The translations under genes were made by a program, and so were the position numbers. A DNA stretch of 64,000 bases from Minisyncoccia bacterium (GTDB lineage: Bacteria; Patescibacteriota; Minisyncoccia; Phycocordibacterales; UBA918). This document shows positions 11,437 to 45,155 of the stretch, piece after piece. Location of the stretch: assembly GCA_046293175.1 (NCBI GenBank), contig JBKBPM010000001.1, positions 4,484-68,483 of the forward strand, in the 5' to 3' direction. Under the pieces are notes generated by a model. That model searched no databases, was not told the origin of the DNA, and saw nothing but the letters and a program-made list of their open reading frames with translations. Positions within the stretch are counted from its first letter, which is position 1. Each line of letters opens with the position of its first letter.

Positions 11437-11458
11437 GCCGATTCGTTCGGTTCAAGAT

Positions 11459-13294: not shown

Positions 13295-13322
13295 TTGCAT
13301 TATTTTTCAATATCTGTATAAT
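13295..13322 (+). promoter_or_regulatory. Candidate sigma70-type rRNA promoter (TTGCAT-N16-TATAAT) upstream of 16S
   Basis: ttgcattatttttcaatatctgtataat about 460 nt upstream of 16S 5' end in an AT-rich leader. Confidence 0.45.
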
Positions 13323-15232: not shown

Positions 15233-15454
15233 ATTGGACACGTCGTTGCGTCTTGGTAACAAGATTGCACATAACGGCTAATTGGTCGATATTAGGTAGC
15301 TCAATTGACTACCTAATGAGTAGACGATACAGAACACTCTGAAGTGGTATCGGACTTTTAGGAAAGACTAAAGCCAAAGGATAAGACAAAAGAGCAGACG
15401 AGCAATTGCTTTTTTTGTACCCTATATTTGTTGCATATTGATATGAAGTGGGTG

Positions 15455-23380: not shown

Positions 23381-23387
23381 GAGAACA

Positions 23388-23427
23388 AGAAAAGGCCGGA
23401 GCTATCGCTCCGGCCTTTTCTTTTTTC
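23388..23427 (+). terminator. Rho-independent terminator between metK and rsmI
   Basis: aaaaggccggagctatcgctccggccttttcttttttc. Confidence 0.75.
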
Positions 23428-23457
23428 AAAATCGTGGTACGGTATGGCAACTACGTA

Positions 23458-30075: not shown

Positions 30076-30121
30076 TTGACAACACGGGCGGAAACCAAAT
30101 TTGGTTTCCGCCCGTGTTGTC
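30076..30121. promoter_or_regulatory. 46-bp perfect palindrome (23+23) between small ORF and epimerase-GT gene: terminator and/or operator
   Basis: tgacaacacgggcggaaaccaaatttggtttccgcccgtgttgtca followed by tattttgg; 37 bp upstream of ATG 30159. Confidence 0.7.
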
Positions 30122-30158
30122 ACTATTTTGGAGGTTTTCTGGTACTATAGAAGCGCAT

Positions 30159-31601
30159 ATGGCAAAACTGATTGTGGTGACCGGTGGGGCAGGGTTTGTA
30201 GGCTCACACCTCTGTGAGCGTTTGGTACATGATGGTCACCGGGTAATTTCCCTTGATAACTATTTCACCGGTAGTACGGCAAATCATGTAGAAGGGGTCG
30301 AGTACCGTACCGGTCACACCAAAGACATCGCTTCTCTTGTACCGGAAACACCAGATATTATTTTCCACCTCGGCGAATATGCTCGAACGGAGAAGAGTTT
30401 TGAAGATATTGAAATTGTCTTTGATCTCAACAAGACCGGCACCTTTGCGGTCCTTGAGTATGCCAGACGAACCAAGGCGAAGCTCATCTACGCCGGATCG
30501 TCGACTAAGTTTGCCGATGGCGGTAGCGGTCGCAATCAAAGCCCGTACGCCTGGAGTAAGGCGACTAACACGGAACTGGTAGAAAATTATGCAGAGTGGT
30601 TTGGTCTCAATTACGCCATCACGTATTTCTACAATGTGTATGGTCCACGCGAGATGAGTGGGGCGTATGGTACCCTCATTAAAATCTTTAGTGACCTCTA
30701 CAAGAGCGGGCAGCCATTGACCGTCACGGCACCCGGTACCCAGACCCGCAACTTTACCCATGTCGAAGATATCGTGAATGGTCTTGTGCTCGTCGGTGAA
30801 AAGGGTCAAGGGGATGGTTACGGTATCGGCGCAGACGAGATGTACGGTGTACTAGAGGTAGCCAACATGTTTGGTGGTGAGATAATCATGCTGCCTGAGC
30901 GCAAGGGTAATCGGCTCCAAGGTGGTGTCGATAATGCACAAGTAAAGGCGCTTGGCTGGCAGCAAAAGCATCGCTTGCCAGACTGGATTGAAGCCGTGAA
31001 GAAAGAAGTCGGGGCGGTAGTGCCACAAGAACAGCGCATCTTGGTTTTTTCGACTACCTTCTACCCACACGCCGGTCCAGCCGAGCATGCGCTCTGCGAT
31101 CTGATGCGCGCCTTACCACACGTGCAGTTTGATGTGGTCACCACAAAGTTCTCCAAAGACACGATGGGGGATGCCTGCGATATTCCAAATGTCACCCTCT
31201 ACCGGGTTGGGGTCGGGCGGCCACTAGACAAGTACCTCCTCCCGCTCGCGGGGGCAAGGATAGCGAGCCGTTTACGCCGCCAGCACTCGTATATGTTTAA
31301 GTGGTCACTGTTTGCGAGTTACGGTGCACTCGCATCCCTCTTATCCTTTGGGCCACATATCCCGCACCTCATTACGCTTGCTGATCAGAAGCTCGGAAAT
31401 ATTCCCTGGTTTACTCGTGTGGTACTAAGGCATGTGCTTGGCACTGCAGACCAGGTCTACGCTATGGATACCTATGAAGCGAAGAGTGCGGTCTCGCTTG
31501 CGAAGCGTACCACCCTTGTCCGCTCGATTGGTCAAGGTGATGCCTTCGCAAACCAGCTCCGCGTCGCCTATGGTAACTATCTTCGTGCGCGGATAAAGTA
31601 A
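30159..31601 (+). CDS. Fusion: UDP-glucuronate decarboxylase (UDP-xylose synthase)-like SDR with a GT4 N-terminal-domain-only module
   Basis: LIVVTGGAGFVGSHL, DNYFTG, YAWSK, FYNVYGPRE (UXS-like) over aa 1-310; then ILVFSTTFYPHAGPAEHAL...FDVVTTKF paralogous to N-terminus of next gene. Confidence 0.65.
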   Translation: MAKLIVVTGGAGFVGSHLCERLVHDGHRVISLDNYFTGSTANHVEGVEYRTGHTKDIASLVPETPDIIFHLGEYARTEKSFEDIEIVFDLNKTGTFAVLEYARRTKAKLIYAGSSTKFADGGSGRNQSPYAWSKATNTELVENYAEWFGLNYAITYFYNVYGPREMSGAYGTLIKIFSDLYKSGQPLTVTAPGTQTRNFTHVEDIVNGLVLVGEKGQGDGYGIGADEMYGVLEVANMFGGEIIMLPERKGNRLQGGVDNAQVKALGWQQKHRLPDWIEAVKKEVGAVVPQEQRILVFSTTFYPHAGPAEHALCDLMRALPHVQFDVVTTKFSKDTMGDACDIPNVTLYRVGVGRPLDKYLLPLAGARIASRLRRQHSYMFKWSLFASYGALASLLSFGPHIPHLITLADQKLGNIPWFTRVVLRHVLGTADQVYAMDTYEAKSAVSLAKRTTLVRSIGQGDAFANQLRVAYGNYLRARIK

Positions 31602-31603
31602 TT

Positions 31604-32812
31604 ATGAAAAGGAAAATTCTTATCTTTTCGCTTGGATACTACCCAAAGCACATCGGAGGCGCTGAGGTCGCCATCAAAGAAATTACCGACCGACTCTCAC
31701 CAGAGGAATACGAATTTCATGTGCTCTGTAATCGGTACGATAGTACCTTGCCAAAGGAAGAACACATTGGGAACGTGATGGTGCATCGCATTGGTCTCAC
31801 AAAGAAAAATCCGACCATGGGAGATTTGCGGAAGCTTCCACTCCATCTCAACAAAATCATCTACCAATTTTCGGCTTACTATACCGCGAAGCGTCTCCAC
31901 AAGCATTATCACTTTGATGCGATTTGGGCGATGATGGCACATAGTTGTGGAGTGCCAGCGGGGATGTTCAAAAAACGGTTCCCGGGGGTACCGTATGTGC
32001 TGACGCTCCAAGAAGGCGATCCACCAGAGTACATCGAGCAAAAAATGAAAATATTTGGCAAGCTCTTCCCGGAGGGATTTTCTCGGGCTGATGTCATTCA
32101 ATCTATTTCGACCTTTCTCCAGGGCTGGGCACTCCATATGGGCTTTCGTGGTAAGCAAGTGATTATCCCAAATGCGGTTGATACGAAGAAGTTTATGGTG
32201 GAGCTTTCAGCTGAACGACGACAAGAACTACGACAAGAATTAGGTCTCGCTGAAAACGATATCGTTCTCGTCACCACTTCACGCCTGGTGCATAAAAACG
32301 CGGTAGATGACGTGATCAAAGCGATGGCACTTTTGCCAGCTGAGGTGAAGTTTATTGTCTTTGGCATTGGGCCAGACGAAGACAAACTCAAGTCCTTGAT
32401 TGCTGACCTCAAGCTTGGTGATCGGGTTTCGCTCCGCGGTCAGATTGGTCACGATGTGATGCCAAGCTACCTCAAGGCCTGCGATATCTTTATTCGACCG
32501 TCACGCAGTGAGGGGATGGGGAACTCATTTGTAGAAGCCATGGCGGCTGAGCTACCGGTGATTGCAACTCAAGAGGGTGGTATTGCCGATTTTCTATTTG
32601 ACCGAAACCTCAATCCGGATAAAGAGACGACCGGCTTTGCCGTCCGCAAAGATAATCCCGAAGATATTGCGACTGCTGTGCGTGAGATTATGGCCAACCC
32701 GGAATTTGTTGCCGACGTGGTGGCGACCGCCAAAGCCATGGCCATTCGTGATTATGATTGGGATATTATAGCCAAGCGGATGCATGATGAAGTTTTCCAA
32801 CCATTGTGGTAG
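31604..32812 (+). CDS. GT4 glycosyltransferase
   Basis: ILIFSLGYYPKHIGGAEVAIKEI N-domain; C-domain FIRPSRSEGMGNSFVEAMAAELPVIATQEGGIADF. Confidence 0.8.
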   Translation: MKRKILIFSLGYYPKHIGGAEVAIKEITDRLSPEEYEFHVLCNRYDSTLPKEEHIGNVMVHRIGLTKKNPTMGDLRKLPLHLNKIIYQFSAYYTAKRLHKHYHFDAIWAMMAHSCGVPAGMFKKRFPGVPYVLTLQEGDPPEYIEQKMKIFGKLFPEGFSRADVIQSISTFLQGWALHMGFRGKQVIIPNAVDTKKFMVELSAERRQELRQELGLAENDIVLVTTSRLVHKNAVDDVIKAMALLPAEVKFIVFGIGPDEDKLKSLIADLKLGDRVSLRGQIGHDVMPSYLKACDIFIRPSRSEGMGNSFVEAMAAELPVIATQEGGIADFLFDRNLNPDKETTGFAVRKDNPEDIATAVREIMANPEFVADVVATAKAMAIRDYDWDIIAKRMHDEVFQPLW

Positions 32813-33071
32813 GTGAGTTCGTCCAAAAATCCTTCAGACTTTGTTGCGCTACACTCAGAAACACTCATCGTTAGAAAGTCTGGGAGAATTTCGCAAGAGG
32901 TTGCCAGCTATTTTGAAAAAAGCGACAACCTGTACAGCTTCTGTAAGAAGTGTCTATATACGCTTCATACTTCCTCACTCGCGCTTCGCGTCTATGGAGC
33001 TTCTGAGACCATACTCTTTAGATTTCTGAGGGATTTTTGGCAGGCGTTAATCGTGATATAGTAGAATTCTT

Positions 33072-34199
33072 ATGAAGATTCTATTGGCGGCCGGACTATA
33101 TCCACCAGATATTGGTGGGCCGGCCCGCTATGCTGAGATGATAGCGACGAGACTACCAGCAGAAGGAATGGCGGTTACGGTGGTGCCGTATCGAGAGGTG
33201 CGGAGTGTTCCAAAAATCTTTCGGCATCTCGCCTATACCTGGCGACTGTGGCGTGCCAGTCGGGGCGTATCTGTAGTCTACGCGCTTGATCCAATCAGTG
33301 TTGGGGTGCCAGCAGCAATCGTGTCCTTCCTCCGCGGGCTACCACTGGTGGTCCGACTTGGTGGCGACTACGCGTGGGAGCAAGGAGTCCAGCGTTTTGG
33401 TGTGACTAAGACGCTTGATGCCTATACAAAAGACCCGCATCAGGTCAGATTGCCCGTGCGGATACTAGCCGGGATACAAGCACAGGTGGTGAGGCGGGCT
33501 AAAGCGGTAGTGGTCCCAAGCCAGTACCTCAAAGGGGTTGTGGCGACCTGGGGTGTTGCGCCCTCGCGACTACATGTCATCTACAGTGCGCATACGGTTG
33601 AGCCACTCAAAGACAGCCGCAATGATCTGCGAGCCCAATTAGGTTTTGCCGATCAAACTATCGTGAGCATTAGTCGCCTCACACCATGGAAAGGCATGAG
33701 TGCGCTCCTTGATATGATGGTGGAGCGAAAAGCACGCGGTGACGCAACCAAACTCGTCATTGGTGGAGATGGGCCTGAGCGGGCACCGCTTGAAGCAAAA
33801 ATAAAAACCCTGGGACTTGAGTCGTCTGTGCGGATGGTTGGGGCATTGTCGTTTACTGACGTCTTTCGATATGTGACTGCTGCGGATGTGTTTGTGCTTA
33901 ATACCGCGTACGAAGGACTATCACATCATCTCATTGAAGCACTTGCGCTTGGGACACCGGTCGTGACCACACCGGTTGGCGGGAATCCCGAATTGATCAC
34001 TGATGGGGTGGAGGGACTCTTGGTAGGGGTAAATGACGTGTCGGCCCTTGATACAGCGATTGAAAAAATCCTCACTGATAGTGCCTTGCGAGACAGGCTC
34101 GTTGCCGCCGGTCAAAAGAAGGCAGCCCAGTTTGCGGCGGCAGATGCGATTATGCCTATCAAACAACTTTTGGAGCGTATAATCAGTACTAAGGCATAA
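33072..34199 (+). CDS. GT4 glycosyltransferase
   Basis: ILLAAGLYPPDIGGPARYA; C-domain VLNTAYEGLSHHLIEALALGTPVVTTPVGGNPELI. Confidence 0.8.
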   Translation: MKILLAAGLYPPDIGGPARYAEMIATRLPAEGMAVTVVPYREVRSVPKIFRHLAYTWRLWRASRGVSVVYALDPISVGVPAAIVSFLRGLPLVVRLGGDYAWEQGVQRFGVTKTLDAYTKDPHQVRLPVRILAGIQAQVVRRAKAVVVPSQYLKGVVATWGVAPSRLHVIYSAHTVEPLKDSRNDLRAQLGFADQTIVSISRLTPWKGMSALLDMMVERKARGDATKLVIGGDGPERAPLEAKIKTLGLESSVRMVGALSFTDVFRYVTAADVFVLNTAYEGLSHHLIEALALGTPVVTTPVGGNPELITDGVEGLLVGVNDVSALDTAIEKILTDSALRDRLVAAGQKKAAQFAAADAIMPIKQLLERIISTKA

Positions 34200-34207
34200 C
34201 CTCTTAT

Positions 34208-35353
34208 ATGCATGTAGTCTCTCTCGGCCACGATACAAAGATATTTGACTCGACCTCGCGGCCGTACGGGAGGCAAGTGGCCTATGCCAAAAAAGCCGGG
34301 CAGCTCTCGATGTTGATTCCGACCCATACATCCTATCCCACGGTGACGACAGAGGGTTTTGTGGTTGAGGCAGTGGCCGCCCGTCTCGCACCGGTATGCT
34401 TCATAAAGCTCCTCGTCAGGACGCTACAAGTGGTCTCTCATGCCAAAAAGAATGAGAAGGTGGTCCTCACCGTTCAAAGCCCGTTTGAGCTTGGATTGAT
34501 TGGACTTATTGTTTCAAGGTGGGGTCGTGTACCACTGGAGGTTCAGGTTCATGGTGATTTTTACAGTCGGGAGTATTGGCGTCTCGAATCGCGCGGTAAC
34601 CGCATCCGCTATCAGCTTGGGTTGTTTGTGCTGCGCAGAGCCAATCGGGTGCGAGTAGTAGGGGAGCGGATCCGAACGTCACTCGTTAGTCGCAAAGTGG
34701 CGCGAGAGAAGATTACTGTCTTGCCAATTCAGACGGCACTCACTTCATTTTTGGAAGCTTCACCCCGACCACTCTGGCCAGACACCAATCGACTCACGAT
34801 TATTTCGGTCGCCCGCTTCTCACGTGAGAAAAATCTTTCCATGTTGCTACAGGCTTTTAAGTCTGTTAATCAGGTACATTCTGATACACAGTTGGTGCTC
34901 GTTGGTGAAGGCGGAGAAGAGAAAAAACTCCGGGCAGAGATTGCCGCTCTTTGGCCGAATCATGATGCTCCAGTACTTATATACCCGTGGCAGTCAGATG
35001 TGGCGGCCGTTATGAAAGCGGCAGATATCTTTGTCCTCACCTCTGACTACGAAGGGTATGCGATGGTGCTTGGTGAAGCTATGGCGGCGGGTCTACCGAT
35101 TGTGACGACAGACGTCGGATGTGTCGGTGAACTTTGTCTCCCCGATGTGCATGCACTGGTGGTACCACCGCGTGATGAAGCCTCATTGGCTGCTGCACTC
35201 ACCACCTTGGCGACTGATACTGATCTGCGTACACGTATAGCAGCAGCTGGGATGGTGACGGTAAGGTCGATGGAACAAAGTGACGAGGTATACACCAGTC
35301 AGATTGTCGCTGGTTGGAGTAGCCTTGTGAAGTTGGAAAGAAAAGGACCCTGA
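34208..35353 (+). CDS. GT4 glycosyltransferase
   Basis: VLTSDYEGYAMVLGEAMAAGLPIVTTDVGCVGEL C-domain. Confidence 0.75.
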   Translation: MHVVSLGHDTKIFDSTSRPYGRQVAYAKKAGQLSMLIPTHTSYPTVTTEGFVVEAVAARLAPVCFIKLLVRTLQVVSHAKKNEKVVLTVQSPFELGLIGLIVSRWGRVPLEVQVHGDFYSREYWRLESRGNRIRYQLGLFVLRRANRVRVVGERIRTSLVSRKVAREKITVLPIQTALTSFLEASPRPLWPDTNRLTIISVARFSREKNLSMLLQAFKSVNQVHSDTQLVLVGEGGEEKKLRAEIAALWPNHDAPVLIYPWQSDVAAVMKAADIFVLTSDYEGYAMVLGEAMAAGLPIVTTDVGCVGELCLPDVHALVVPPRDEASLAAALTTLATDTDLRTRIAAAGMVTVRSMEQSDEVYTSQIVAGWSSLVKLERKGP

Positions 35354-35431
35354 CGGGACGAAACCCGGCAGGGGACTTTTTGTTGTGATGTCTATATAAT
35401 AGCAATATCTGTTGTGTTGTTAAGATTCAAC

Positions 35432-36481
35432 ATGAAAAAGAAACTCCTCATCATCACGCAGGTTGTTGATACCAAGCATCCAATCTTGGGCTTTTTTCAT
35501 GGTTGGATTGAGGAATTTGCAAAGCAGTGTGAGCAGGTTCACGTGATTGCTCTACAAGTCGGAATACACAATCTTCCGAGTAATGTGACTGTACACTCCC
35601 TTGGTAAAGAAGCGGGCGAGAGTCGTCTTAAATATCTGTGGCGATTTTATCGAACAATTTATACACTCCGGCATGAGTACGACGCGGTGTTTGTGCATAT
35701 GAATCAGGTGTACGTGATTTTGGGTGGACTCCTCTGGCGACTTTGGGGCAAGCAAATTGGTCTTTGGTATGCGCATGGCGCGGTTTCACTTTCGCTGCGA
35801 GTGGCGACGTGGCTCACCCATATTGTTTTCACCTCCACCCCACAGGGCTTTCGTATAAAATCCCCTAAGGTGGTAGTGACCGGGCAGGGGATTGATATGA
35901 GCCGCTTTCGGTATGTCCCGCGTACAGAGTTTTCAATGTTGCGCCTTTTGGTTGTCGGACGGATTGCCGAATCAAAGGGCATCAAGACGCTCCTTGAAGC
36001 GTGTCACCGGCTTAAAGAATCAGGTATACCATTTTTGTTTACGATTGTCGGAGCGGCGACAACCGAGACGGAACGGCAGTATGAAGCTACGCTCCACGAG
36101 TACTGCAAAAACAACGGACTTGAGTCGCAGGTAATTTGGCATGGCGGTGTAGCTCAGACAGAACTACCAGCTCTCCTTGCCGCCACCGATATTTTTATTC
36201 ACGACGGTGCCACTAACAGTCTTGATAAGGTACTGGTCGAGGCGGTGGCTTGTGGGGTGCCAGTGATTTCCTCAAATCCTTCGTACCGCTACATCATGGG
36301 GGAGAACGAATGGCCCATCTTTTTTCCGCCGCGTGATAGTGTCTCTCTCGCTACAAAAATCACTGAGCTTGCGAACCGATCCCTGTTTGACAAGAACGAG
36401 TTTACACGAGCTACTGCCGCAAAAGTGCAACAGGAGCATAGTCTTTCAAATTTGATTGCAAAGATTTTGGATAGTTATTAA
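35432..36481 (+). CDS. GT4 glycosyltransferase (start at MKKKLLII)
   Basis: FIHDGATNSLDKVLVEAVACGVPVISSNPSYRYIMG C-domain. Confidence 0.75.
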   Translation: MKKKLLIITQVVDTKHPILGFFHGWIEEFAKQCEQVHVIALQVGIHNLPSNVTVHSLGKEAGESRLKYLWRFYRTIYTLRHEYDAVFVHMNQVYVILGGLLWRLWGKQIGLWYAHGAVSLSLRVATWLTHIVFTSTPQGFRIKSPKVVVTGQGIDMSRFRYVPRTEFSMLRLLVVGRIAESKGIKTLLEACHRLKESGIPFLFTIVGAATTETERQYEATLHEYCKNNGLESQVIWHGGVAQTELPALLAATDIFIHDGATNSLDKVLVEAVACGVPVISSNPSYRYIMGENEWPIFFPPRDSVSLATKITELANRSLFDKNEFTRATAAKVQQEHSLSNLIAKILDSY

Positions 36482-36533
36482 TAGACTTTGATTTCGTTGA
36501 TTATACAGATTTATTCATTGTGGAATTTATGTA

Positions 36534-36542
36534 GGGGGGGGG
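36534..36542. repeat. G9 homopolymeric tract about 50 bp upstream of secreted-protein gene (candidate slipped-strand phase-variation site)
   Basis: atgtagggggggggtagaatagg; longest G/C homopolymer seen in the window, in a promoter-proximal position. Confidence 0.8.
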
Positions 36543-36593
36543 TAGAATAGGATTATTATAATGATGTAAAAGTTATTAGATTATCTTTACCCT

Positions 36594-37286
36594 ATGAAGA
36601 ATGTATTAATAATATTTTGTTTCTTCTTTCTATTCATAAATCATGTAAGCGCAGAGACGGTAACCATTTATGGTTCAACCGGCGATGGCCATCTTGGCAC
36701 ACCTTGGGGTGTAAATGATTGGACAGGTCAGCGAATGGCAACAACTGGTAGAGATGTAGATTACACCGGTTCGCAAGTCGAGGTACTTTCATTTATCGGT
36801 AGTCCATCTACTTGGACTTCAATTTACCGCGGATTTCTAGTGTTTGATACTTCCGTGATACCAGATAATGCTGAAATCATCAGTGCCTCAACGAGTATAT
36901 ACACTAATGTTGTGCATAATGATGATAACGATACATATGCATATATGGGCTTGTATCAAGGAATGCAAAACTCTACGAGCAGTATCGATGTTGGTGATAT
37001 TGATCAATGCTCAGATTCCCTGAACAGCCCAACTGCAGGTGCTGCAACAATTGATATAGACAATTTTTCAGTCAATACATATAGCACTTTTGGTCTAAAT
37101 TCAACTGGAAAAAGTTGGATAGACAAAGCGGGTTATACAAAACTTTGTTTCCGGGAAGGTCATGACGCGGGTAATGATCAAATTTCTGGTGGACAGTATA
37201 CCTATTCGGGTTTCAGATTTAGATCAGCTGAAGCTGCAGGAACCAGCACGGATCCGTATATGAAGATAGAGTACATACTTCCTTAG
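36594..37286 (+). CDS. Secreted protein of unknown function (low-GC sub-island)
   Basis: Signal peptide MKNVLIIFCFFFLFINHVSA; about 40% GC vs about 50% in neighbours; terminator aaaacacccttatgtaagggtgtttt at 37305-37330. Confidence 0.5.
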   Translation: MKNVLIIFCFFFLFINHVSAETVTIYGSTGDGHLGTPWGVNDWTGQRMATTGRDVDYTGSQVEVLSFIGSPSTWTSIYRGFLVFDTSVIPDNAEIISASTSIYTNVVHNDDNDTYAYMGLYQGMQNSTSSIDVGDIDQCSDSLNSPTAGAATIDIDNFSVNTYSTFGLNSTGKSWIDKAGYTKLCFREGHDAGNDQISGGQYTYSGFRFRSAEAAGTSTDPYMKIEYILP

Positions 37287-37409
37287 ATAAATAAAATTAT
37301 ATTTAAAACACCCTTATGTAAGGGTGTTTTAAATAAATTTCATCATGCCACTAGACAAAACCTAGCAGGCAACTTTAAAAATTGTTACTATACAAAGAAT
37401 AAATTCAGT

Positions 37410-38198
37410 ATGAAGACAATTATTAACACGGTACCTAAACTAGCCTGGGAACTCTCTGGACATTCAATTTTAGCGACATTGATACTCAGTTGTCGACTCA
37501 GTTATTTTTATATCACCCGGTATTATTGGCCGGCCTGGGGCGATTTTTCAATCACTGTGTATGTGACAAGAAAAGCTCAATTGTTCACGCTTCATAGTTT
37601 TTTGGATGTCGCAGGCCTCGCTGAAGCATTTGTTGATAAAGAGTATTCGTTTGACGGAATTGATGAAGTCAAAACAATTTTAGATATCGGTGGACACATT
37701 GGTGACAGTACACTCTATTTTCGGATGAAGTATCCAAAAGTCACTATTTTTGTGGTGGAGCCAGCGACAGAAACGTTGAAGTATTTACGCAAAAATTTTG
37801 CTAACGATGACAAGGTAAAAATTATTCAAGGCGCATTGGCGGCTACTTCAGGGTATCTAGAACTACAAATTACAAAAAATTCTATGGGTCACTCCCTGAA
37901 ATCGCGCTCTTCTGGAGTTGGTCATGAGACAGTTAAAACTCATACGCTATCGGATATCTGTAGTCTGGCGGGGGTGTCTAAATTTGATATCACAAAATTT
38001 GATATTGAAGGCGGTGAAGATGCATTATTAAGTATCAAACCAAATACATATAGCCGGGCCTATATTGGAGAAATTCATCTTGACCTCCTGCCGGGTGTGT
38101 CACTCGAAGATTACAAAACTGTATTCAAAGATGCTTCAGTGACCTTCACAAACACAAAACACCAAAAGCGATATATAATGAGAGCCCTGTATGCATAA
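37410..38198 (+). CDS. FkbM-family SAM-dependent methyltransferase
   Basis: ILDIGGHIGDSTLYF, FVVEP, FDITKFDIEGGE motifs. Confidence 0.75.
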   Translation: MKTIINTVPKLAWELSGHSILATLILSCRLSYFYITRYYWPAWGDFSITVYVTRKAQLFTLHSFLDVAGLAEAFVDKEYSFDGIDEVKTILDIGGHIGDSTLYFRMKYPKVTIFVVEPATETLKYLRKNFANDDKVKIIQGALAATSGYLELQITKNSMGHSLKSRSSGVGHETVKTHTLSDICSLAGVSKFDITKFDIEGGEDALLSIKPNTYSRAYIGEIHLDLLPGVSLEDYKTVFKDASVTFTNTKHQKRYIMRALYA

Positions 38199-38829
38199 AA
38201 TATCCCCGCATTACTCAATTATTCGAACCGCTGAGTACAAAGCTCTAGAGAAGCTTTTGATGAACGGAAAGATTCTAGACGTTGGTGGAGGCAAGAATAC
38301 CGCCTACCACCACATCATTAAAGGAGAACATACCTTCACGGTCATTAACCTCGACGAAAATTCACAACCTGACTTTATTGTTGATATTGAAAAGTCATTT
38401 CCATTTGAGAATGGTGTATTTGATCACTGTGTTTGTCTTAATGTACTTGAGCATGTCTGGCTGTACGAAAACGCTTTTAGTGAAATGGTTCGGGTGACCA
38501 AGACGGGCGGTACGATAGTTATAACTACACCATTTATGCACCATATTCATGGTTCACCGGATGACTATCTGCGGTACACACCATCAGTCTATAAGAGAAT
38601 CGTTGAGCGATATGATTGTGAAGTCGTTTCAATTGAAGCTACCGGGCAGGGACTTTTTTCGGTTGTCTACCAATCAATCTTTATTGGGATTCCAACCAAG
38701 ACACTTAGGTATATTGGAAAGAAAATTGCCGTAGGTCTAGACAGCTTCTTTTCCACTCTTTCAAAACGTTATCGCAAAATGGCGGAGACTTTACCGCTTG
38801 GTTACATTGTGATCATAAAAAAGAAGTAG
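38191..38829 (+). CDS. Class I SAM-dependent methyltransferase (Methyltransf_11-like); start overlaps previous stop (ATGCATAA)
   Basis: ILDVGGGKNTAYH motif I; VCLNVLEHV; GGTIVITTP. Confidence 0.7.
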   Translation: MHKISPHYSIIRTAEYKALEKLLMNGKILDVGGGKNTAYHHIIKGEHTFTVINLDENSQPDFIVDIEKSFPFENGVFDHCVCLNVLEHVWLYENAFSEMVRVTKTGGTIVITTPFMHHIHGSPDDYLRYTPSVYKRIVERYDCEVVSIEATGQGLFSVVYQSIFIGIPTKTLRYIGKKIAVGLDSFFSTLSKRYRKMAETLPLGYIVIIKKK

Positions 38830-38866
38830 TCACTTTTTGGTGGTCAAGAAGGTAATAGGTTGATAT

Positions 38867-39814
38867 ATGAACATACTCGTCACCGGTGGAGCCGGATTTA
38901 TTGGCAACGCATTTACGCTAAAAGCAGTGGCCGAGGGGCATACGGTGACAGTCATCGATAACATGAATAGTTACTATGACCGCAGTCTCAAAGAGGCGCG
39001 TCGGGCGCGCTTGCCAGAGACAGTTACCTTTGTAGAAGGTGATATTACCGACCGTGCACTCCTCACTCGACTCTGCGAAGGAGAGCATTTTGACGCAATT
39101 GGTCACTTTGCGGCGCAGGCCGGGGTACGGTATTCGCTCGAACACCCTGAGGTGTATGTCGAGAGTAATTATGTGGGGACCTTTACGATTCTTGATGTTG
39201 CTCGCCTTTGTGGTATCACAAAAATTGTCATGGCGTCGACTTCGTCGGTCTATGGCGATGATACCCCTACTCCGTTTGTGGAGACAGCACCAGCTAGTCA
39301 CCCGGTATCCATTTATGCCGCGACGAAGCGTGGGGTAGAGATCTTGGCCTCGACCTACGCCCATCTCTACCAGATGGAGATTACGGCCCTGCGCTTCTTT
39401 ACGGTATATGGTCCGTGGGGGAGACCAGACATGGCCCTCTTTCATTTCACCAAACAAATGTTGGCCGGTGAACAGATTCCTGTCTACAACAACGGGCAGA
39501 TGCGCCGGGATTTTACCTACGTTGATGATATTGTCGACGGCTTTTACCGCGCAGTGACTACTTCCATCCCCGGATACACCGTCATGAATATTGGCAATGG
39601 GCAGCCGGTTGAACTGATGGACTTTATCCGACACCTTGAGTCCGCTCTTGGTGTAGAGGCGAAGATAGACTTTAAACCAATGCAGGCTGGGGATGTGCAT
39701 GAGACGTATGCTGATATCAGCCAAGCCAAAGAGAAGCTGGGATATGACCCAAAGACTGATATTAAGCAAGGAATCATATCTTTTGTCGAGTGGTACCGTA
39801 GTTATTATCAGTAG
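38867..39814 (+). CDS. UDP-glucuronate 4-epimerase-like NAD-dependent epimerase
   Basis: ILVTGGAGFIGNAF, YAATKRGVE, hallmark LRFFTVYGPWGRPDMA. Confidence 0.75.
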   Translation: MNILVTGGAGFIGNAFTLKAVAEGHTVTVIDNMNSYYDRSLKEARRARLPETVTFVEGDITDRALLTRLCEGEHFDAIGHFAAQAGVRYSLEHPEVYVESNYVGTFTILDVARLCGITKIVMASTSSVYGDDTPTPFVETAPASHPVSIYAATKRGVEILASTYAHLYQMEITALRFFTVYGPWGRPDMALFHFTKQMLAGEQIPVYNNGQMRRDFTYVDDIVDGFYRAVTTSIPGYTVMNIGNGQPVELMDFIRHLESALGVEAKIDFKPMQAGDVHETYADISQAKEKLGYDPKTDIKQGIISFVEWYRSYYQ

Positions 39815-39834
39815 GGCATTATGCTACTATAATG

Positions 39835-40490
39835 CCATGTCGGATTTTACTTTTTTACTGAAGGAAATTAGCAAAGGTCGCTCAGTGACCCGGTCATTTT
39901 TTAACAATGCGGTGCGCAAGATTTCGGTGCGTGGTAAGGTGATTGATATTGGAGCGGGGAGTAGTCCTCATTACCAGGACCTCATGCTCAAAGAGCCGGG
40001 AGCGGAGTTTGTGAGTATGGATCGCCTTACGGGGGACAGCACCAACTTTGAGACTGATGCGCTGCCGTACGAAACCGCGAGTTTTGATACGGTGATCTCG
40101 ATGAACGTGCTTGAGCATATCTACAATTACAAATGGCACTTTGGTGAACTCGTCCGGATCTTGAAGCCCCAAGGGAAATTCGTGATGTTTGTGCCGTTTT
40201 TGTACATGTACCACCCAGGACATAGTGATGGGCTCCTTGATTGTCACCGCTATACCCGTGATGCACTTGAGCGCATGTGTGCGGAGGTGGGTCTTACCGC
40301 CGAAGTAAAGGAGGTAAGTCGGGGCGTCTGTATCGCAGCGCTTAATATGTGTATCTTGTCGATGCCAAAAATCATCCGGCCTTTCTTCTTTGTACCAGCC
40401 TATCTCCTTGATGGTCTCTTAATCAAATACCGTCCGCTTTACCCGCGTCAGTTTCCACTCGGGTACATGGTGGTAGCCGTAAAAAAATAA
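39835..40490 (+). CDS. Class I SAM-dependent methyltransferase, paralog of 38191-38829
   Basis: VIDIGAGSSPHY; ISMNVLEHI; C-terminus PLGYMVVAVKK vs PLGYIVIIKKK in paralog. Confidence 0.65.
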
Positions 40491-40493
40491 TCT

Positions 40494-41522
40494 ATGGTCC
40501 CCATCTATATTTTTAGACGCAAAGATGGTATCAAAGATTCGATTTTGTTGACCCTGATGCAGAGTCAAAATGAGTACGAAGGTGGACTCTTTCAGCAAAT
40601 CAAAACGGCGCCATTTCGTACGCTCGCTACGTTTGTGGGAGAAGGGGAGTCAGCGAAGTATGTGATGATTCCACACAATTATTTTGCTATCGAAAATGAT
40701 ACTGCGTACCTAGAGGAAGCAGCCGCCTATGCGAAACAAATTGGTGCGAAACTCTTTGTCTTTGCCTACGGCGATAGTGCTGAACCGATTGTGATTGATA
40801 ATGCGATTATTATTCGCTCCTCAGCCTACACGTCACGCCTGCGGCCAAACGAAATCATCATGCCGGCCTTTGTGGAGGATATCGGTGAGCAATTCGGAGT
40901 ACACTATCGTGAGAAGACCGTACCGGTACCAACGATTGGTTTTACCGGTTGGGTACGATTCGGAAATTTTAAACAAGAGTATAAGTACCAAATCAAAATC
41001 TGGCGCTCAAAAATGGCTATCTGGTTTGCGGGTGCGCCAAAGCCCTCGCTCCAGGGTCTCTACTACCGTCGCAAAGCCATTGATTACATTAATCGCGCCA
41101 AGCGGGTAACCGGTCGCTTTATCATGCGTGGTTCGTACTCAGGGAGCGCAAAGACAATCGAAGCAGATCCGAGTGTGGTACGCAAGCAATTTGTAGACTC
41201 AATCACCGAGGCGGATTTGTCGCTGGTGGTACGGGGCGACGGCAACTTCTCACTGCGGTTCTTTGAAGTGCTCTCGCTTGGCCGGATTCCGGTGTTTGTG
41301 GATACGGAGACACCACTCCCACGCGTGACAGAGATTGATTACGACTCGTTTATGATTCGGGTTCCGCACGAGCGACTCCATGATATAGAAACTATTGTTG
41401 GTGATTTTTGGGACGCTTGTACCCCTGAGCAATACCAGGCTATGCAGCAAAAAGCCCGTACCATCTTTGAGACGAAGCTTCGAGCTGATCGATTTTACAC
41501 TGACCTTTTTGCCACCCTATGA
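40494..41522 (+). CDS. Exostosin/GT47-like glycosyltransferase (tentative)
   Basis: LSLVVRGDGNFSLRFFEVLSLGRIPVFV resembles the GT47 C-terminal motif (PRGD..S.R..EAL..GCIPV). Confidence 0.4.
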   Translation: MVPIYIFRRKDGIKDSILLTLMQSQNEYEGGLFQQIKTAPFRTLATFVGEGESAKYVMIPHNYFAIENDTAYLEEAAAYAKQIGAKLFVFAYGDSAEPIVIDNAIIIRSSAYTSRLRPNEIIMPAFVEDIGEQFGVHYREKTVPVPTIGFTGWVRFGNFKQEYKYQIKIWRSKMAIWFAGAPKPSLQGLYYRRKAIDYINRAKRVTGRFIMRGSYSGSAKTIEADPSVVRKQFVDSITEADLSLVVRGDGNFSLRFFEVLSLGRIPVFVDTETPLPRVTEIDYDSFMIRVPHERLHDIETIVGDFWDACTPEQYQAMQQKARTIFETKLRADRFYTDLFATL

Positions 41523-42358
41523 GCATTCTTTTTAATGCCTTTATTTCTATCTCTAGTCTCTTTAAAGCACCGCTCTCTGCGCGACGAAAACTTTTGGTGT
41601 TGTGGTGGTACCTCTGTATCTTGGTAGCCTTACCATTCTCTCGACTGACGCGTCAGCGTCGTATTTATTGTGCTGGGTTTGTCATTGAGGGGTTTGATCT
41701 TGCGACATTACGGTTCCTTTACGAAGAAACTTTTTTGCGTCAAGAATACAACGTGCAGCTTCCGAAAGCACCGTACTGTATTGATGCCGGAGCCAATATT
41801 GGTATTGCCACCCTCTTTATCAAGTGGCTCTATCCCGACGCTCACGTACTGGCGATTGAACCAGATCCTGCCACCGTCGCACTCTTGCGCAAGAATATAA
41901 AGCGGAACAAACTCAAGGACGTCACTGTTTTCCATGGTGCGGTTAGTGACCAAGCTGGCCAGTTATCGCTCTTTATTCATCCTACGAAGCAAGGGTCGCT
42001 GAAGATGAGCAACTATGCCCGCAAGGGTATGACGGTTGAAGTACAAGTACCGGCCGAGCGACTGTCGACACTCCTTACTAAAGCTGGGTGGTCACATATC
42101 GATTTTGCCAAGATTGATATTGAAGGAGCAGAGTGGCAGGTTCTCCGTGACCTCACGACTAGCGGCTGGCTCGCCAAAGTAGGACAGTACGTCATCGAAT
42201 ACCATCACCTCATGGGTACCCACGAATCAAAATTCAGTGAGTTCCTCAGGGACTTTGAAGCAGCGGGGTATCTCTACCAAATGAATACCAAGTCGTTGCC
42301 GTATAACCACGCCCCACAGTTTCAGGACGTGCTTCTGTATCTGAAGCGGGCGGTATAA
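41519..42358 (+). CDS. FkbM-family methyltransferase
   Basis: CIDAGANIGIATLF, AIEPDP, FAKIDIEGAE. Confidence 0.7.
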   Translation: MSILFNAFISISSLFKAPLSARRKLLVLWWYLCILVALPFSRLTRQRRIYCAGFVIEGFDLATLRFLYEETFLRQEYNVQLPKAPYCIDAGANIGIATLFIKWLYPDAHVLAIEPDPATVALLRKNIKRNKLKDVTVFHGAVSDQAGQLSLFIHPTKQGSLKMSNYARKGMTVEVQVPAERLSTLLTKAGWSHIDFAKIDIEGAEWQVLRDLTTSGWLAKVGQYVIEYHHLMGTHESKFSEFLRDFEAAGYLYQMNTKSLPYNHAPQFQDVLLYLKRAV

Positions 42359-42362
42359 CATT

Positions 42363-43514
42363 ATGGCTACTGATACCCGTAGTGTCATTGTCTATGTACT
42401 CCCGAGTCTCGTCGCTTCCGGTGGTATCGAGCGGCAGTTTTTGGCCCAGATGAAAGTGATTGATACGACGAAGTTCGTCATCCATGTAGTAACGCTTTGT
42501 ACCTACCCTGGTCGTGAATCACTCTATGAGCAGCTACCCGAGCATGTGACCGCGCATGAACTAGCGTGGCGGGGTGGGTTTGATGTGAAGACAATTTTTA
42601 GATTGTTTCGTCTCTTACGTCGTCTACGACCGGCGGTAGTAGTATCAAGTATGGTGACCGCAAACACGCTGGTGCGATATCTCCGGCCCTTGGTGGGATA
42701 TAAGGTAATAGCGCGCGAGCATAACACCTACGAAGACAAGACATTACGACACAAAATCCGCGATCATATTGGCGCTTACTTTTCGAGTCGGATTGTCGCG
42801 GTCTCAAAAACAGTGGCTGATTTCTCCTCTCACCAATCATGGATACCAAGGCGTTGGTTTACGGTTATCTACAATGGGATTGATACCAAACGGGTGGCCG
42901 AATTTTTGGCTACGGAAGCACCAATCAAAGTTCCGGCATTACGAGCGGAGTTTGGTTGGAGCGAAGAAACCAAGATGATTCTTAATGTTGCTCGACTCAA
43001 AAAGCACAAAAATCACCGTCTTCTTATTGACGGTTTTGCACTCTACCTCAAAACGCACCCGACTGACGACGTTGTTCTTTGTATTGTCAGCGCCGGCAGT
43101 GAAGAAGCGAACCTTCGTGCGTATATTGCCGAGCTTGGGCTCCAAAACCGCATTGTCTTGACCGGCTACCGCAATGACGTGTATACCTTTTTTGCTGCAG
43201 CCAAGGCCTTCTTTTTGACGTCTGACATTGAAGGATTTCCCAATGTCGCCATTGAAGCGCTTGCGTTTGGCGTACCGGTCGCATCAACTATCGTCCCTGG
43301 TATTGATGAGATTATTGTTGATGGGGAACAGGGGAAACTCTTAGAACGTACCCCGGCCTCGGTTTGTGCTACAATGGACTGGTTTTTTAAGTTATCAGAT
43401 GATGACTATGCGAAGGTAGCAATGCGCGCCAAGGCTACGGCAGCAGCATTTGATATCAAACGGATTGTTGGGGAATACGAAGACTTATTTTGTGAACTGA
43501 TAACGAGAAAATGA
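42363..43514 (+). CDS. GT4 glycosyltransferase
   Basis: VIVYVLPSLVASGGIERQ; C-domain FLTSDIEGFPNVAIEALAFGVPVASTIVPGIDEII. Confidence 0.8.
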   Translation: MATDTRSVIVYVLPSLVASGGIERQFLAQMKVIDTTKFVIHVVTLCTYPGRESLYEQLPEHVTAHELAWRGGFDVKTIFRLFRLLRRLRPAVVVSSMVTANTLVRYLRPLVGYKVIAREHNTYEDKTLRHKIRDHIGAYFSSRIVAVSKTVADFSSHQSWIPRRWFTVIYNGIDTKRVAEFLATEAPIKVPALRAEFGWSEETKMILNVARLKKHKNHRLLIDGFALYLKTHPTDDVVLCIVSAGSEEANLRAYIAELGLQNRIVLTGYRNDVYTFFAAAKAFFLTSDIEGFPNVAIEALAFGVPVASTIVPGIDEIIVDGEQGKLLERTPASVCATMDWFFKLSDDDYAKVAMRAKATAAAFDIKRIVGEYEDLFCELITRK

Positions 43515-43515
43515 T

Positions 43516-44364
43516 ATGAAAGAAATTTGCGGAGACGTTTCAAAAGAAAATAATCTATCAGTACTCGAGAAGACTCAGTATTTTTTTCATAACCTTACCC
43601 GTGGTCTCTACGGGCACCACACCTGGCTTTGGTGCAAACGGTTGCCTGCACCAACCAATTTCAGTAAACGGATTACTGATTCACCGATGCGGTTTTTACT
43701 TGATAATGCCTTTGCTGAAGTAATCAAGCGGTATGTGCCAGCCGCATCGCTGTCAGTATTTGATATTGGGTCAGGAACAGCGTACTACCGGTCAGCCTTG
43801 GCTGCCCTTGGTAAGAGTGGCACCTATACCGGGTTAGATGTGTATCGCCACCCTCGCTATAGTGACGATGCGGTACCAGCCTTTGCGTCATCAATGATTA
43901 TCAGAAAGATTGAGGATCTTGTGCCAACTACCACCTATGATTTGGTGATGAGTATCACTGCCCTTGAGCATATACAAGATGATCAAAAAGCGATTACGCT
44001 CTCGACTGCCTTGGCAGGACAAAATGGGGTGCAGGTACATATTGCGCCGTCATTCCTGTCACTCTTTTTGTATCTGTGGCATGGCTATCGGCAGTACACG
44101 CCGTGGCGGGTAAAACACTTGTTTAAAGGGTTGCCGTATGATGTGTATCGTCTCGGTGGGTGGGGAAGTTTTTTGGTACACTTCCTTTTTATTACCGTAC
44201 CAGAGCGAATTATCGGTTTGCCGTCACCTCGTCGCTTCGCCATCTACCACTACAGTCTGCGGGTTGGTCTCTTTGTAGACCGCCTTATCCCGTTTGGATC
44301 AATCGCCTACATCGTCGTGGTGCGACCACAAAAAACCTATGAATCGTCTTCGACAAAAAATTAA
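43516..44364 (+). CDS. SAM-dependent methyltransferase (tentative)
   Basis: VFDIGSGTAYY motif I, ITALEHI motif. Confidence 0.5.
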   Translation: MKEICGDVSKENNLSVLEKTQYFFHNLTRGLYGHHTWLWCKRLPAPTNFSKRITDSPMRFLLDNAFAEVIKRYVPAASLSVFDIGSGTAYYRSALAALGKSGTYTGLDVYRHPRYSDDAVPAFASSMIIRKIEDLVPTTTYDLVMSITALEHIQDDQKAITLSTALAGQNGVQVHIAPSFLSLFLYLWHGYRQYTPWRVKHLFKGLPYDVYRLGGWGSFLVHFLFITVPERIIGLPSPRRFAIYHYSLRVGLFVDRLIPFGSIAYIVVVRPQKTYESSSTKN

Positions 44365-45148
44365 ATCACTCACCCAAGCCCAAAAGTTTGGTACTACGTG
44401 GTTGGATCGTGGCTACATCGTAGCGATGTTGTTGTGGCGTCCATTGCGGCGGCGTTTTGGTATCAAGGATACACCGTGCGTATTTCATATCACTATTAAT
44501 GCCACACCACTCTCGGTGACCCTAAATGGTTCGCATGATGAGTTTTTGATTTTTGACGAAATCATGATTCGTCAGGAGTACAACGTACCCGCTCTGAAGA
44601 GTAAAGAGGTGCGACACATTATAGATGCTGGCGCCAATATTGGTCTTGTATCCTTGTTTTATAGTGCCATGTACAAAGATGCGGTGATTCATGCCTATGA
44701 ACCGAATCCTGAGTTATTCCCACGCCTGCGAGCGCAAGTGGCGCAGTGTCCACGGATAGTGCCGCATGAATTGGCACTAGGTGGCCACAGTGGCCAGGTA
44801 CAGTTTTATGTGAATCCAGAAAAAAGCATTGCTTCATCACTGACTCCAAGACCTGATATGCCACTGGTGCCGTACGAAGTGACCGTAGCGGCACTTGATG
44901 AGGTGGTGAGAGAAGCGGGGATGGAGCAGATTGATATTCTTCAGTTTGATATTGAGGGAGCGGAATATGAAATGTTGGCACACTCAACAGCGGCGGCAGC
45001 GAGCCGGGTTTTGATTGGTGAAATCCATGAAGATTTAAGTGGACACAAACTTGAAGATTTTGTGAAGTTGCTTCCACATCATGACGTGACCGTGGCTCCT
45101 GGTCGAAAGGCGGGTCGGTATGTAATCCTTGGTATACACGAAGGATAG
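44339..45148 (+). CDS. FkbM-family methyltransferase (start at MNRLRQ)
   Basis: IIDAGANIGLVSLF, AYEPNP, LQFDIEGAE. Confidence 0.7.
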   Translation: MNRLRQKIKSLTQAQKFGTTWLDRGYIVAMLLWRPLRRRFGIKDTPCVFHITINATPLSVTLNGSHDEFLIFDEIMIRQEYNVPALKSKEVRHIIDAGANIGLVSLFYSAMYKDAVIHAYEPNPELFPRLRAQVAQCPRIVPHELALGGHSGQVQFYVNPEKSIASSLTPRPDMPLVPYEVTVAALDEVVREAGMEQIDILQFDIEGAEYEMLAHSTAAAASRVLIGEIHEDLSGHKLEDFVKLLPHHDVTVAPGRKAGRYVILGIHEG

Positions 45149-45155
45149 TCTCTGT

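What the first reader, a model, noticed from the sequence alone, without database searches (positions are those of the whole stretch)
36480..38830. Low-GC (about 40%) sub-island inside the glycan locus, with a G9 homopolymer upstream of a secreted protein gene (phase-variation candidate)
A G9 run (36534-36542) lies about 50 bp upstream of the start of a signal-peptide protein (36594-37286). It sits at the left edge of an AT-rich block that also contains an FkbM and a class I methyltransferase. Homopolymeric G tracts in promoters are classic slipped-strand mispairing switches controlling surface or glycan-modifying genes. Nothing comparable occurs elsewhere in the window.
Basis: partly seen in the sequence, partly recalled or inferred. 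Interest (0 to 1): 0.55.

Follow-up and report, generated by a model that had tools for sequence, protein, structure and literature searches.

The report
Poly-G tract in lectin gene promoter
A run of nine G's sits in a highly conserved control region just upstream of a gene for a secreted sugar-binding-type protein in an uncultured ultra-small (CPR) bacterium; a related lineage has eight G's there, so it is a credible but unproven on/off or dimmer switch of a familiar kind.

Summary
G9 lies at 36534-36542, 51 bp before the ATG of a signal-peptide protein (36594-37286). It sits at the left edge of the lowest-GC block of the window (38.8% against 47.8%), which also holds an FkbM and a class I methyltransferase.

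The source is a Candidatus Paceibacteria (CPR) MAG.

**For a switch:**
- In the only other lineage with this locus (about 78% nucleotide identity), a 91-bp block (36512-36602) has no substitutions.
- The sole difference in that block is G8 instead of G9.
- The tract abuts a -10-like TAGAAT.

**Against or missing:**
- No read-level data were available.
- All assemblies within a lineage agree (G9 twice, G8 three times).
- This genome's promoters are extended -10 type with no clear -35.
- Composition-only nulls make a G9 somewhere in 64 kb unremarkable.

**The gene:** it is a stand-alone, terminator-bounded unit. It encodes a beta-sandwich resembling CBM96/DNRLRE carbohydrate-binding modules. The domain belongs to a large family with no Pfam model, also found in pilin-like and giant surface proteins.

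**Verdict:** a plausible promoter simple-sequence-repeat switch, that is, a new member of a known kind in a phylum where none is documented. It is not demonstrated. The low-GC block is a shared, mosaic glycan-locus cassette, not a recent mobile island.

The parts
36534..36542 (+). G9 homopolymer; G8 at the orthologous site in lineage B (L003, L007, L008)
36512..36602 (+). 91-bp conserved cis-regulatory block. It has no substitutions against a lineage about 78% identical overall; the only difference is the 1-G indel. It is the best conserved stretch in about 6.8 kb of aligned DNA.
36518..36523 (+). TTGTGG, a weak -35-like hexamer (3 of 6). It lies 19 bp from TAGAAT at G9 and 18 bp at G8. Inferred, not demonstrated.
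   Evidence: read from the sequence; not called by the consensus scan
36543..36548 (+). TAGAAT, a -10-like hexamer directly abutting the G tract (GGG-TAGAAT, compare GGG-TATACT upstream of the gene at 26180). Leading candidate -10.
36557..36562 (+). TATAAT, an alternative -10-like hexamer. Its -35 position would fall inside the G tract.
36577..36582 (+). TAGATT, an alternative -10-like hexamer at -17 from the ATG. This is the position typical of this genome's leaderless or short-leader genes.
36594..37286 (+). Gene for a 230-aa secreted single-domain beta-sandwich protein, CBM96/DNRLRE-like (NCBI MFN3692502.1, locus tag ACK4SL_00195). Residues 1-20 (36594-36653) form the signal peptide.
37295..37340 (.). 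Strong hairpin terminator (22-nt arms, 91% complementary). The stem is conserved in lineage B with a different loop. It closes the one-gene transcription unit.
37383..37391 (+). TGTTACTAT, an extended -10 promoter of the FkbM gene, conserved as TGCTACTAT in lineage B
37410..38198 (+). FkbM-family methyltransferase, GC 39.7%; only 60% amino-acid identity to the lineage B allele
38191..38829 (+). Class I SAM methyltransferase, GC 40.5%; 89% amino-acid identity to lineage B
36482..38830 (+). Low-GC three-gene cassette inside the glycan locus (about 30114-46061: epimerases, GT4 x5, GT47-like, GT2, three FkbM and four class I methyltransferases)

Best explanation
The G9 run is a genuine poly-G simple-sequence repeat. 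It is embedded in the cis-regulatory block of a stand-alone gene for a secreted, lectin-like (CBM96/DNRLRE-fold) protein. The gene lies in a methylated-glycan biosynthesis locus of a Paceibacteria (CPR) bacterium.

The most likely mechanism is slipped-strand mispairing that changes the tract length. That change alters promoter geometry: the distance between the -10-like TAGAAT abutting the tract and the upstream DNA, including TTGTGG, would be 19 bp at G9, 18 bp at G8 and 17 bp at G7. Expression of the lectin would then be switched or graded within a population.

Shown here:
- the tract and its rarity against the genome's own run-length spectrum;
- its position 51 bp before the ATG, inside the most conserved stretch of the locus;
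- a G8/G9 difference between the two known lineages;
- the one-gene unit with its own terminator;
- the protein's fold and family.

Inferred:
- which -10 is used;
- that length affects transcription;
- that switching is frequent and selected.

The low-GC block is a variable cassette of the surface-glycan locus. Both lineages share it, and recombination has shaped it.
For: - Tract and position.
- Depletion of long G/C runs in the window: 39 runs of 5, 2 of 6, none of 7-8, one of 9. Extrapolation expects 0.015 runs of 9 or more per 64 kb.
- Orthologous tract G8 in L003, with identical sequence in L007 and L008.
- No substitutions in 36512-36602, against 7 mismatches in the 29 bp just upstream and 60-85% identity elsewhere. 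The tract indel is the only non-coding indel in 1.87 kb.
- The exact-match runs flanking the indel (60 and 30 bp) exceed every other run in about 6.8 kb; the next best is 35 bp. The tract therefore changed while 82 neighbouring bases did not.
- The -10-like TAGAAT abuts the tract, and the conserved block begins 6 bp upstream of TTGTGG.
- There is no terminator between the GT4 gene and the tract, but a strong conserved terminator follows the gene. The next gene has its own conserved extended -10.
- Gene product: AlphaFold pLDDT 94.5, pTM 0.88. Foldseek hits are 8WAB chondroitin-sulfate CBM (E 1e-6, TM 0.55/0.70) and 7VBO CBM96 (E 2e-4). DNRLRE NF033679 gives E 3.7e-5 over nearly the whole profile.
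- Relatives are fused to a pilin N-methylation motif, Ig-like domains and peptidases in large surface proteins. This is the class of product that phase variation usually controls.
- Lineage B's cassette carries two more G/C runs: an in-frame G7 in FkbM and a C6 at codons 5-6 of the methyltransferase. That makes 3 runs of 6 or more in 3.3 kb, Poisson P about 5e-4 at the window's rate.
Against: - No read-level data, so heterogeneity is untested.
- Both assemblies of lineage A show G9. All three of lineage B show G8, including a contig reported from two samples.
- The consensus sigma-70 scan calls no promoter across the tract. TTGTGG matches only 3 of 6.
- Eighteen putative promoters in the window show TGnTAnnnT about 15 nt before the ATG and no clear -35. 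A spacer-length mechanism may therefore not apply, and the working -10 could be TAGATT at 36577, 35 bp downstream of the tract.
- Composition-only nulls make a G9 in 64 kb unremarkable.
- One 1-bp difference between lineages about 20% diverged could be a neutral fixed indel.
- Distant homologues (P0002, P0030) have no tract upstream.
Confidence: 0.45

Rival explanations
1. Static element. The G tract is a fixed part of the regulatory region, for example the G-rich context just upstream of the -10 (as in GGG-TATACT at gene 26180), a rigid spacer, or a regulator site. The G8/G9 difference is a neutral or once-fixed indel with no switching role.
For: Tract length is the same in all assemblies of each lineage. 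Promoters here are extended -10 types without a recognisable -35. A GGG-TATACT promoter-like site exists elsewhere. The whole block is under strong conservation, which fits a fixed functional sequence.
Against: A G8-G9 run is intrinsically slippage-prone (general knowledge of homopolymer mutability). It is the one thing that changed in a block where 82 other bases did not. The genome otherwise avoids G/C runs longer than 6, so keeping one suggests its properties are used.
Confidence: 0.35
2. Junction relic. The tract is a by-product of acquiring the low-GC cassette, a scar near its left boundary, and has no function.
For: It lies 53 bp inside the left edge of the low-GC block. Identity to lineage B is mosaic around it, rising in the last 300 bp of the GT4 gene.
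Against: No flanking direct or inverted repeats and no mobility genes. The cassette and the tract are at the same place in both lineages. The block around the tract is the most conserved DNA of the locus, which is not what a functionless scar would show.
Confidence: 0.07
3. RNA-level role. In transcripts reading through from the upstream GT4 genes, the G run pairs with the ACCCU just 5' of the AUG and masks the start codon.
For: There is no terminator between the GT4 gene and the tract. The minimum-free-energy fold pairs the G run with UACCCU next to the AUG.
Against: The fold is no more stable than shuffled sequence (z = -0.05). There is no Rfam match. No covariation is available because the block is invariant.
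Confidence: 0.05
4. Artefact. The tract, or the G8/G9 difference, is an assembly or sequencing error.
For: Homopolymers are error-prone on some platforms; the platforms used are unknown to me.
Against: The NCBI MAG and an independent k-mer assembly (Logan) agree on G9 over 6.7 kb at 100% identity. NCBI, JGI and Logan assemblies agree on G8 for lineage B.
Confidence: 0.03

Closest known systems
Promoter homopolymer phase variation in Neisseria meningitidis (porA poly-G, opc poly-C between -35 and -10) and Bordetella pertussis fim2/fim3 (poly-C between the activator site and -10)
   Same: A G/C homopolymer of about 9 nt sits immediately upstream of a -10-like hexamer of a gene for a secreted or surface protein. 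Length differs by one unit between lineages. (The named systems are from my own knowledge; general background is in PMC1891110 and PMC5084427, listed.)
   Different: No demonstrated -35 or activator site and no expression data. The organism's promoters look like extended -10 types. The host is a free-living or episymbiotic CPR bacterium, not a mucosal pathogen.
Campylobacter jejuni poly-G tracts in capsule, LOS and flagellin-glycan modification genes, including methyltransferases
   Same: Poly-G tracts are concentrated in a low-GC, methyltransferase-rich surface-glycan locus. Lineage B also has an in-frame G7 in the FkbM gene. (Background: PMC8355987 and PMC3068675, listed.)
   Different: Campylobacter tracts are mostly intragenic frameshift switches of G8-G13. 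Here the long tract is intergenic, and the intragenic runs are short (G7, C6).
Mycoplasma variable surface protein promoters (e.g. M. hyorhinis vlp poly-A tract)
   Same: A small-genome, host-dependent, wall-reduced lineage uses a promoter homopolymer to vary a secreted or surface protein (own knowledge).
   Different: That tract is poly-A, not poly-G, and controls lipoprotein families with repeat-rich coding regions. This gene is single-copy and not a lipoprotein.
CBM96 / DNRLRE domain (NF033679; structures 7VBO alginate-binding and 8WAB chondroitin-sulfate-binding)
   Same: The same beta-sandwich fold by Foldseek (E 1e-6 and 2e-4). A weak sequence match covers almost the full DNRLRE profile. 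7VBO is the founding CBM96 and is related to DNRLRE (PMC9971899).
   Different: The score is below the NCBIfam cut-off (23.9 against 34 bits). A profile of the family finds no PDB sequence. The protein is about 40 residues larger than the CBMs. It is not attached to a carbohydrate-active enzyme. Ligand binding is untested.

Membership tests
Simple-sequence-repeat contingency locus (promoter homopolymer phase variation) | G/C homopolymer long enough to slip (about 8 or more) | tested here: met
   G9 at 36534-36542; G8 in lineage B
Simple-sequence-repeat contingency locus (promoter homopolymer phase variation) | Tract lies within or next to the promoter of the controlled gene | tested here: inconclusive
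   The tract is 51 bp before the ATG, abuts a TAGAAT and lies inside a 91-bp invariant block. However, no consensus promoter spans it, and two further -10-like hexamers lie downstream.
Simple-sequence-repeat contingency locus (promoter homopolymer phase variation) | Tract length differs among related strains while flanks are conserved | tested here: met
   G9 against G8 with no substitutions in the surrounding 82 bases. Only two lineages are known.
Simple-sequence-repeat contingency locus (promoter homopolymer phase variation) | Length heterogeneity within a population (reads) | not testable with these tools
   No read access. Consensus length is constant within each lineage across 2 and 3 assemblies.
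Simple-sequence-repeat contingency locus (promoter homopolymer phase variation) | Expression changes with tract length | not testable with these tools
   Needs reporter fusions or transcriptomics.
Simple-sequence-repeat contingency locus (promoter homopolymer phase variation) | Tract is over-represented relative to genome expectation | tested here: inconclusive
   Expected 0.015 per 64 kb from the genome's own run-length spectrum, but not unusual under dinucleotide shuffles (43 of 100).
CBM96 / DNRLRE domain | Sequence match to NF033679 at or above the curated cut-off | tested here: not met
   23.9 bits against a cut-off of 34, E 3.7e-5, profile positions 21-163 of 164
CBM96 / DNRLRE domain | Beta-sandwich fold superposable on solved CBM96 structures | tested here: met
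   Model pLDDT 94.5. 8WAB E 1e-6, TM 0.55/0.70; 7VBO E 2e-4, TM 0.47/0.58.
CBM96 / DNRLRE domain | Binds a polysaccharide | not testable with these tools
   Needs binding assays.
FkbM-family methyltransferase (37410-38198) | Match to TIGR01444 / PF05050 above cut-off | tested here: met
   TIGR01444 77 bits against 37.7; PF05050 37.9 bits against 22.7
Horizontally acquired genomic island | Deviant base composition | tested here: met
   38.8% GC, the lowest 2.35-kb stretch of the window; GC3 31-41% against 45-55% in neighbouring genes
Horizontally acquired genomic island | Mobility genes, flanking repeats or a tRNA insertion site | tested here: not met
   No significant flanking repeats. The tRNAs are 19 kb away. 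The three genes are a lectin-like protein and two methyltransferases.
Horizontally acquired genomic island | Present or absent among close relatives | tested here: not met
   The same three genes, in the same order and position, and likewise low-GC, occur in lineage B.

The most novel reading that the evidence does not exclude
This is the first simple-sequence-repeat contingency locus recognised in the Candidate Phyla Radiation. A poly-G promoter switch would control a secreted lectin-like module whose relatives are displayed on pilin-like and giant surface proteins. It would lie within a glycan-modification cassette that in one lineage carries further slippage-prone runs (G7 in FkbM, C6 in a methyltransferase). 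Under this reading, ultra-small episymbionts use Campylobacter- or Mycoplasma-style stochastic variation of surface recognition.
Probability: 0.25. Interest if true: 0.6.

Novelty: new member of a known kind. Interest (0 to 1): 0.4.

Why it matters
CPR/Patescibacteria are thought to live attached to host cells. How they vary their surface and attachment factors is largely unknown. A full-text search found only one paper containing both 'Patescibacteria' and 'phase variation', each term occurring once, in a paper about archaeal DNA methylation.

If the tract does switch a secreted lectin-like protein, this would extend a classic pathogen strategy to this phylum. It would also give a simple, read-countable marker of population heterogeneity in metagenomes.

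Separately, the gene belongs to a large domain family with no Pfam model: about 5,000 cluster representatives with a CBM96-like fold. The domain is recurrent in CPR-type surface proteins and deserves a family definition.

Tried and rejected
- **First protein search.** The word-indexed search suggested an orphan with 2 hits. The exhaustive HMMER search showed a large family, so the orphan reading is rejected.
- **First structure model.** The 2-sequence alignment gave an unusable model (pLDDT 38.6). A 24-sequence alignment solved this.
- **PDB sequence search.** A profile of the family found nothing. Only fold comparison linked it to CBM96.
- **More tract alleles.** A flank-pattern scan and a protein scan of JGI metagenome contigs both found nothing. 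Extra assemblies of lineage B (L007, L008) are identical to L003, so they add no new alleles.
- **Family-wide tract.** Upstream regions of distant homologues P0002 and P0030 have no homopolymer. The tract is lineage-specific.
- **Structured RNA or riboswitch in the conserved block.** No Rfam hit, and the fold is no better than shuffles. Rejected.
- **Mobile-element boundaries.** No meaningful repeats. Rejected.
- **Small ORF across the tract.** The ORF at 36488-36550 (20 aa, TTG start) has a 5' part that is not conserved, and G8 would shift its frame. Treated as spurious.
- **Consensus promoter scan.** It gave no more hits than shuffles and none across the tract. A hand-built alignment of 18 putative promoters gave TGnTAnnnT and no -35. 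It could not decide which -10 is used.
Full report
**1. The observation**

The sequence shows nine G's at 36534-36542. The first possible start codon of the downstream ORF is the ATG at 36594, 51 bp later, and the ORF ends at 37286. The N-terminus MKNVLIIFCFFFLFINHVSA|ETV has the form of a signal peptide. The confident part of the structure model and the homologue alignment both begin at about residue 20.

The block 36480-38830 is 38.8% GC, against 49.1% and 46.9% on either side. It is the lowest-GC 2.35-kb stretch of the window, about 3.5 sd below the mean. It contains an FkbM-family methyltransferase and a class I methyltransferase.

The G9 is the only G or C run of 7 or more in 64 kb. Its significance depends on the null:
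- Dinucleotide-preserving shuffles often produce G8 or longer (43 of 100 reach the observed count).
- The real sequence is strongly depleted of long G/C runs: 39 of length 5, 2 of length 6, none of 7-8. Its own run-length spectrum predicts 0.015 runs of 9 or more.

**2. Source and comparison material**

The protein is MFN3692502.1 (ACK4SL_00195) from a Candidatus Paceibacteria MAG, on a 676-kb contig. The window also holds a 16S rRNA gene.

An independent Logan assembly (SRR31360863, L002) is 100% identical over 6.7 kb and also reads G9.

A flank-pattern scan of species-representative genomes found one other lineage, a Candidatus Parcubacteria MAG from White Clay Creek (L003). There the tract is G8. 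Two more assemblies of that lineage (Logan SRR35355747, reported from two samples, and JGI 3300043408) are identical to L003 and also read G8. Scans of JGI metagenome contigs found no further alleles.

**3. What the comparison shows**

The two lineages are about 75-80% identical in DNA across the locus. Protein identities are mosaic:

| Protein | Amino-acid identity |
|---|---|
| Downstream class I methyltransferase (the ORF listed at 39693-40490) | 95% |
| Cassette class I methyltransferase (38191-38829) | 89% |
| Lectin-like protein | 89% and 83% (to the two domains in L003) |
| GT47-like | 84% |
| GT4 genes | 74% and 67% |
| FkbM | 60% |

Against this background, 36512-36602 has no substitutions at all. 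The only difference is the single-G indel. The 29 bp just upstream carry 7 mismatches.

The exact-match runs on either side of the indel (30 and 60 bp) are the longest in about 6.8 kb of alignment; the next best is 35 bp. The intergenic region after the gene, which holds a terminator and the FkbM promoter, is visibly less conserved.

The block is either under very strong constraint or recently shared by recombination. Either way, the tract is the one thing that changed while 82 neighbouring bases did not. It has also been kept long in both lineages, in genomes that otherwise avoid such runs.

**4. Anatomy**

The upstream GT4 gene ends at 36481, and no terminator lies before the tract. The tract directly abuts TAGAAT (36543-36548). 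A weak TTGTGG lies at 36518-36523, 6 bp inside the conserved block. That gives spacings of 19 bp at G9, 18 bp at G8 and 17 bp at G7.

Two further -10-like hexamers follow: TATAAT at 36557 and TAGATT at 36577.

The gene is followed by a strong hairpin terminator (37295-37340). Its stem is conserved in lineage B. The FkbM gene has its own conserved TGnTACTAT. The lectin-like gene is therefore a self-contained unit within an otherwise same-strand gene array.

Eighteen putative promoters in the window share TGnTAnnnT starting about 15 nt before the ATG, and they show no clear -35 or Shine-Dalgarno sequence. This suggests leaderless or short-leader mRNAs driven by extended -10 promoters.

That pattern weakens the textbook spacer-length model and leaves the working -10 undecided. 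No structured RNA was detected in the block.

**5. The gene product**

Pfam has no model for it. NCBIfam's DNRLRE domain matches weakly but end to end, at 23.9 bits against a cut-off of 34.

An exhaustive profile search found 4,981 cluster representatives (239 at E of 1e-30 or better). The domain occurs:
- alone;
- at the N-terminus of proteins of about 650 aa;
- inside proteins of 2,000-3,000 aa.

Partner domains include a pilin N-methylation motif, a Rha78A-like Ig domain, a C39-like peptidase and subtilase. The named sources are Patescibacteria for the nearer relatives.

With a 24-sequence alignment, AlphaFold gives pLDDT 94.5. Foldseek's best matches are:
- the chondroitin-sulfate CBM 8WAB (E 1e-6);
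- pro-BMP9 prodomains;
- the CBM96 founder 7VBO (E 2e-4);
- CBM15.

7VBO is the CBM96 founder and is related to DNRLRE (PMC9971899).

The product is therefore best described as a secreted, lectin-like beta-sandwich of the CBM96/DNRLRE superfamily. It is not a member by the curated sequence threshold, and its ligand is unknown.

**6. The low-GC block**

The same three genes, in the same order and likewise low-GC (36-42% against 47-56%), occur in lineage B. There are no flanking repeats or mobility genes.

The surrounding locus (about 30114-46061) encodes two epimerases, five GT4, a GT47-like and a GT2 glycosyltransferase, and seven methyltransferases. Low GC and mosaic allele divergence are what one expects of a variable cassette in a surface-glycan locus (established knowledge of O-antigen and capsule loci).

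**7. Explanation and rivals**

I commit to a slipped-strand promoter switch or rheostat as the most likely function (0.45). The main rival is a static regulatory or spacer element with a neutral G8/G9 indel (0.35). A junction relic (0.07), an RNA-level start-codon mask (0.05) and an artefact (0.03) are minor.

Points against switching:
- consensus length is constant within each lineage;
- the promoter is undefined;
- no read data are available.

**8. Novelty and score**

The mechanism is classic. What would be new is its occurrence in CPR bacteria, where a full-text search found no report, and its target, a lectin-like module of a large uncharacterised surface-protein family.

I rate it a new member of a known kind, with interest 0.4.

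Noticed in passing
window 36594-37286 against L003 3592-5253 (- strand): Domain copy number differs between lineages. Lineage B encodes a 553-aa protein made of domain 1, a Rha78A-like Ig domain and domain 2. The window gene has one domain. Its 5' two-thirds resembles domain 1 (up to 97% identity), and its last 120 nt or so resembles domain 2 (85-87% against 72-73%). That fits deletion or duplication by recombination between the repeats.
   Followed up: partly
L003 3181-3187 and 2666-2671 (gene strand is -): In lineage B the FkbM gene has an in-frame G7 (TTG GGG GGG CAT = LGGH); the window uses GGT GGA there. The class I methyltransferase has a C6 at codons 5-6. A +1 or -1 slip in the G7 truncates FkbM at about residue 130. 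With the promoter G8 this makes three runs of 6 or more in 3.3 kb (P about 5e-4 at the window's rate).
   Followed up: partly
window-wide, e.g. upstream of 2914, 9161, 27891, 33072, 52625: Most genes lack a Shine-Dalgarno sequence. They carry TGnTAnnnT starting about 15 nt before the ATG, which suggests leaderless or very short-leader mRNAs from extended -10 promoters with no clear -35.
   Followed up: partly
window 36561-36569: A two-codon mini-ORF, ATG ATG TAA, lies inside the invariant block, between the candidate -10 elements and the real start codon.
   Followed up: no
family of window 36594-37286 (P0003-P0191): This domain of about 215 aa has no Pfam model but about 4,981 cluster representatives. 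Invariant residues are D31, D135, R187, D191, P221 and Y227, with a conserved LCLREGHD motif. It is fused in various proteins to a pilin N-methylation motif, Ig-like domains, a C39-like peptidase or subtilase.
   Followed up: partly
window 38867-39814; L003 6509-7000: Gene content differs between lineages. The window has an NAD-dependent epimerase between the two class I methyltransferases that lineage B lacks. Lineage B has a low-GC (36%) NYN-domain gene between two GT4 genes that the window lacks.
   Followed up: partly
window 22434-24143: A single 569-aa ORF joins all three S-adenosylmethionine synthetase domains to a C-terminal tetrapyrrole-methylase-type (TP_methylase) domain. It is either an unusual fusion or a missed gene boundary.
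   Followed up: no
window 24463-26127: A low-GC (43%) gene encodes a protein of four DUF285 repeats (Mycoplasma-type, E 5e-106), just upstream of a fused L,D-transpeptidase and D-Ala-D-Ala carboxypeptidase.
   Followed up: no
window about 10900-13700: A high-GC stretch (55-59% against 48%) lies directly upstream of the 16S rRNA gene (13777-15234). It has overlapping ORFs on both strands, no Pfam hit and no Rfam hit. It is unexplained.
   Followed up: partly
window 27891-29786: A TrwB/TraG-type (type IV coupling protein-like) ATPase gene lies a few kb upstream of the glycan locus.
   Followed up: no
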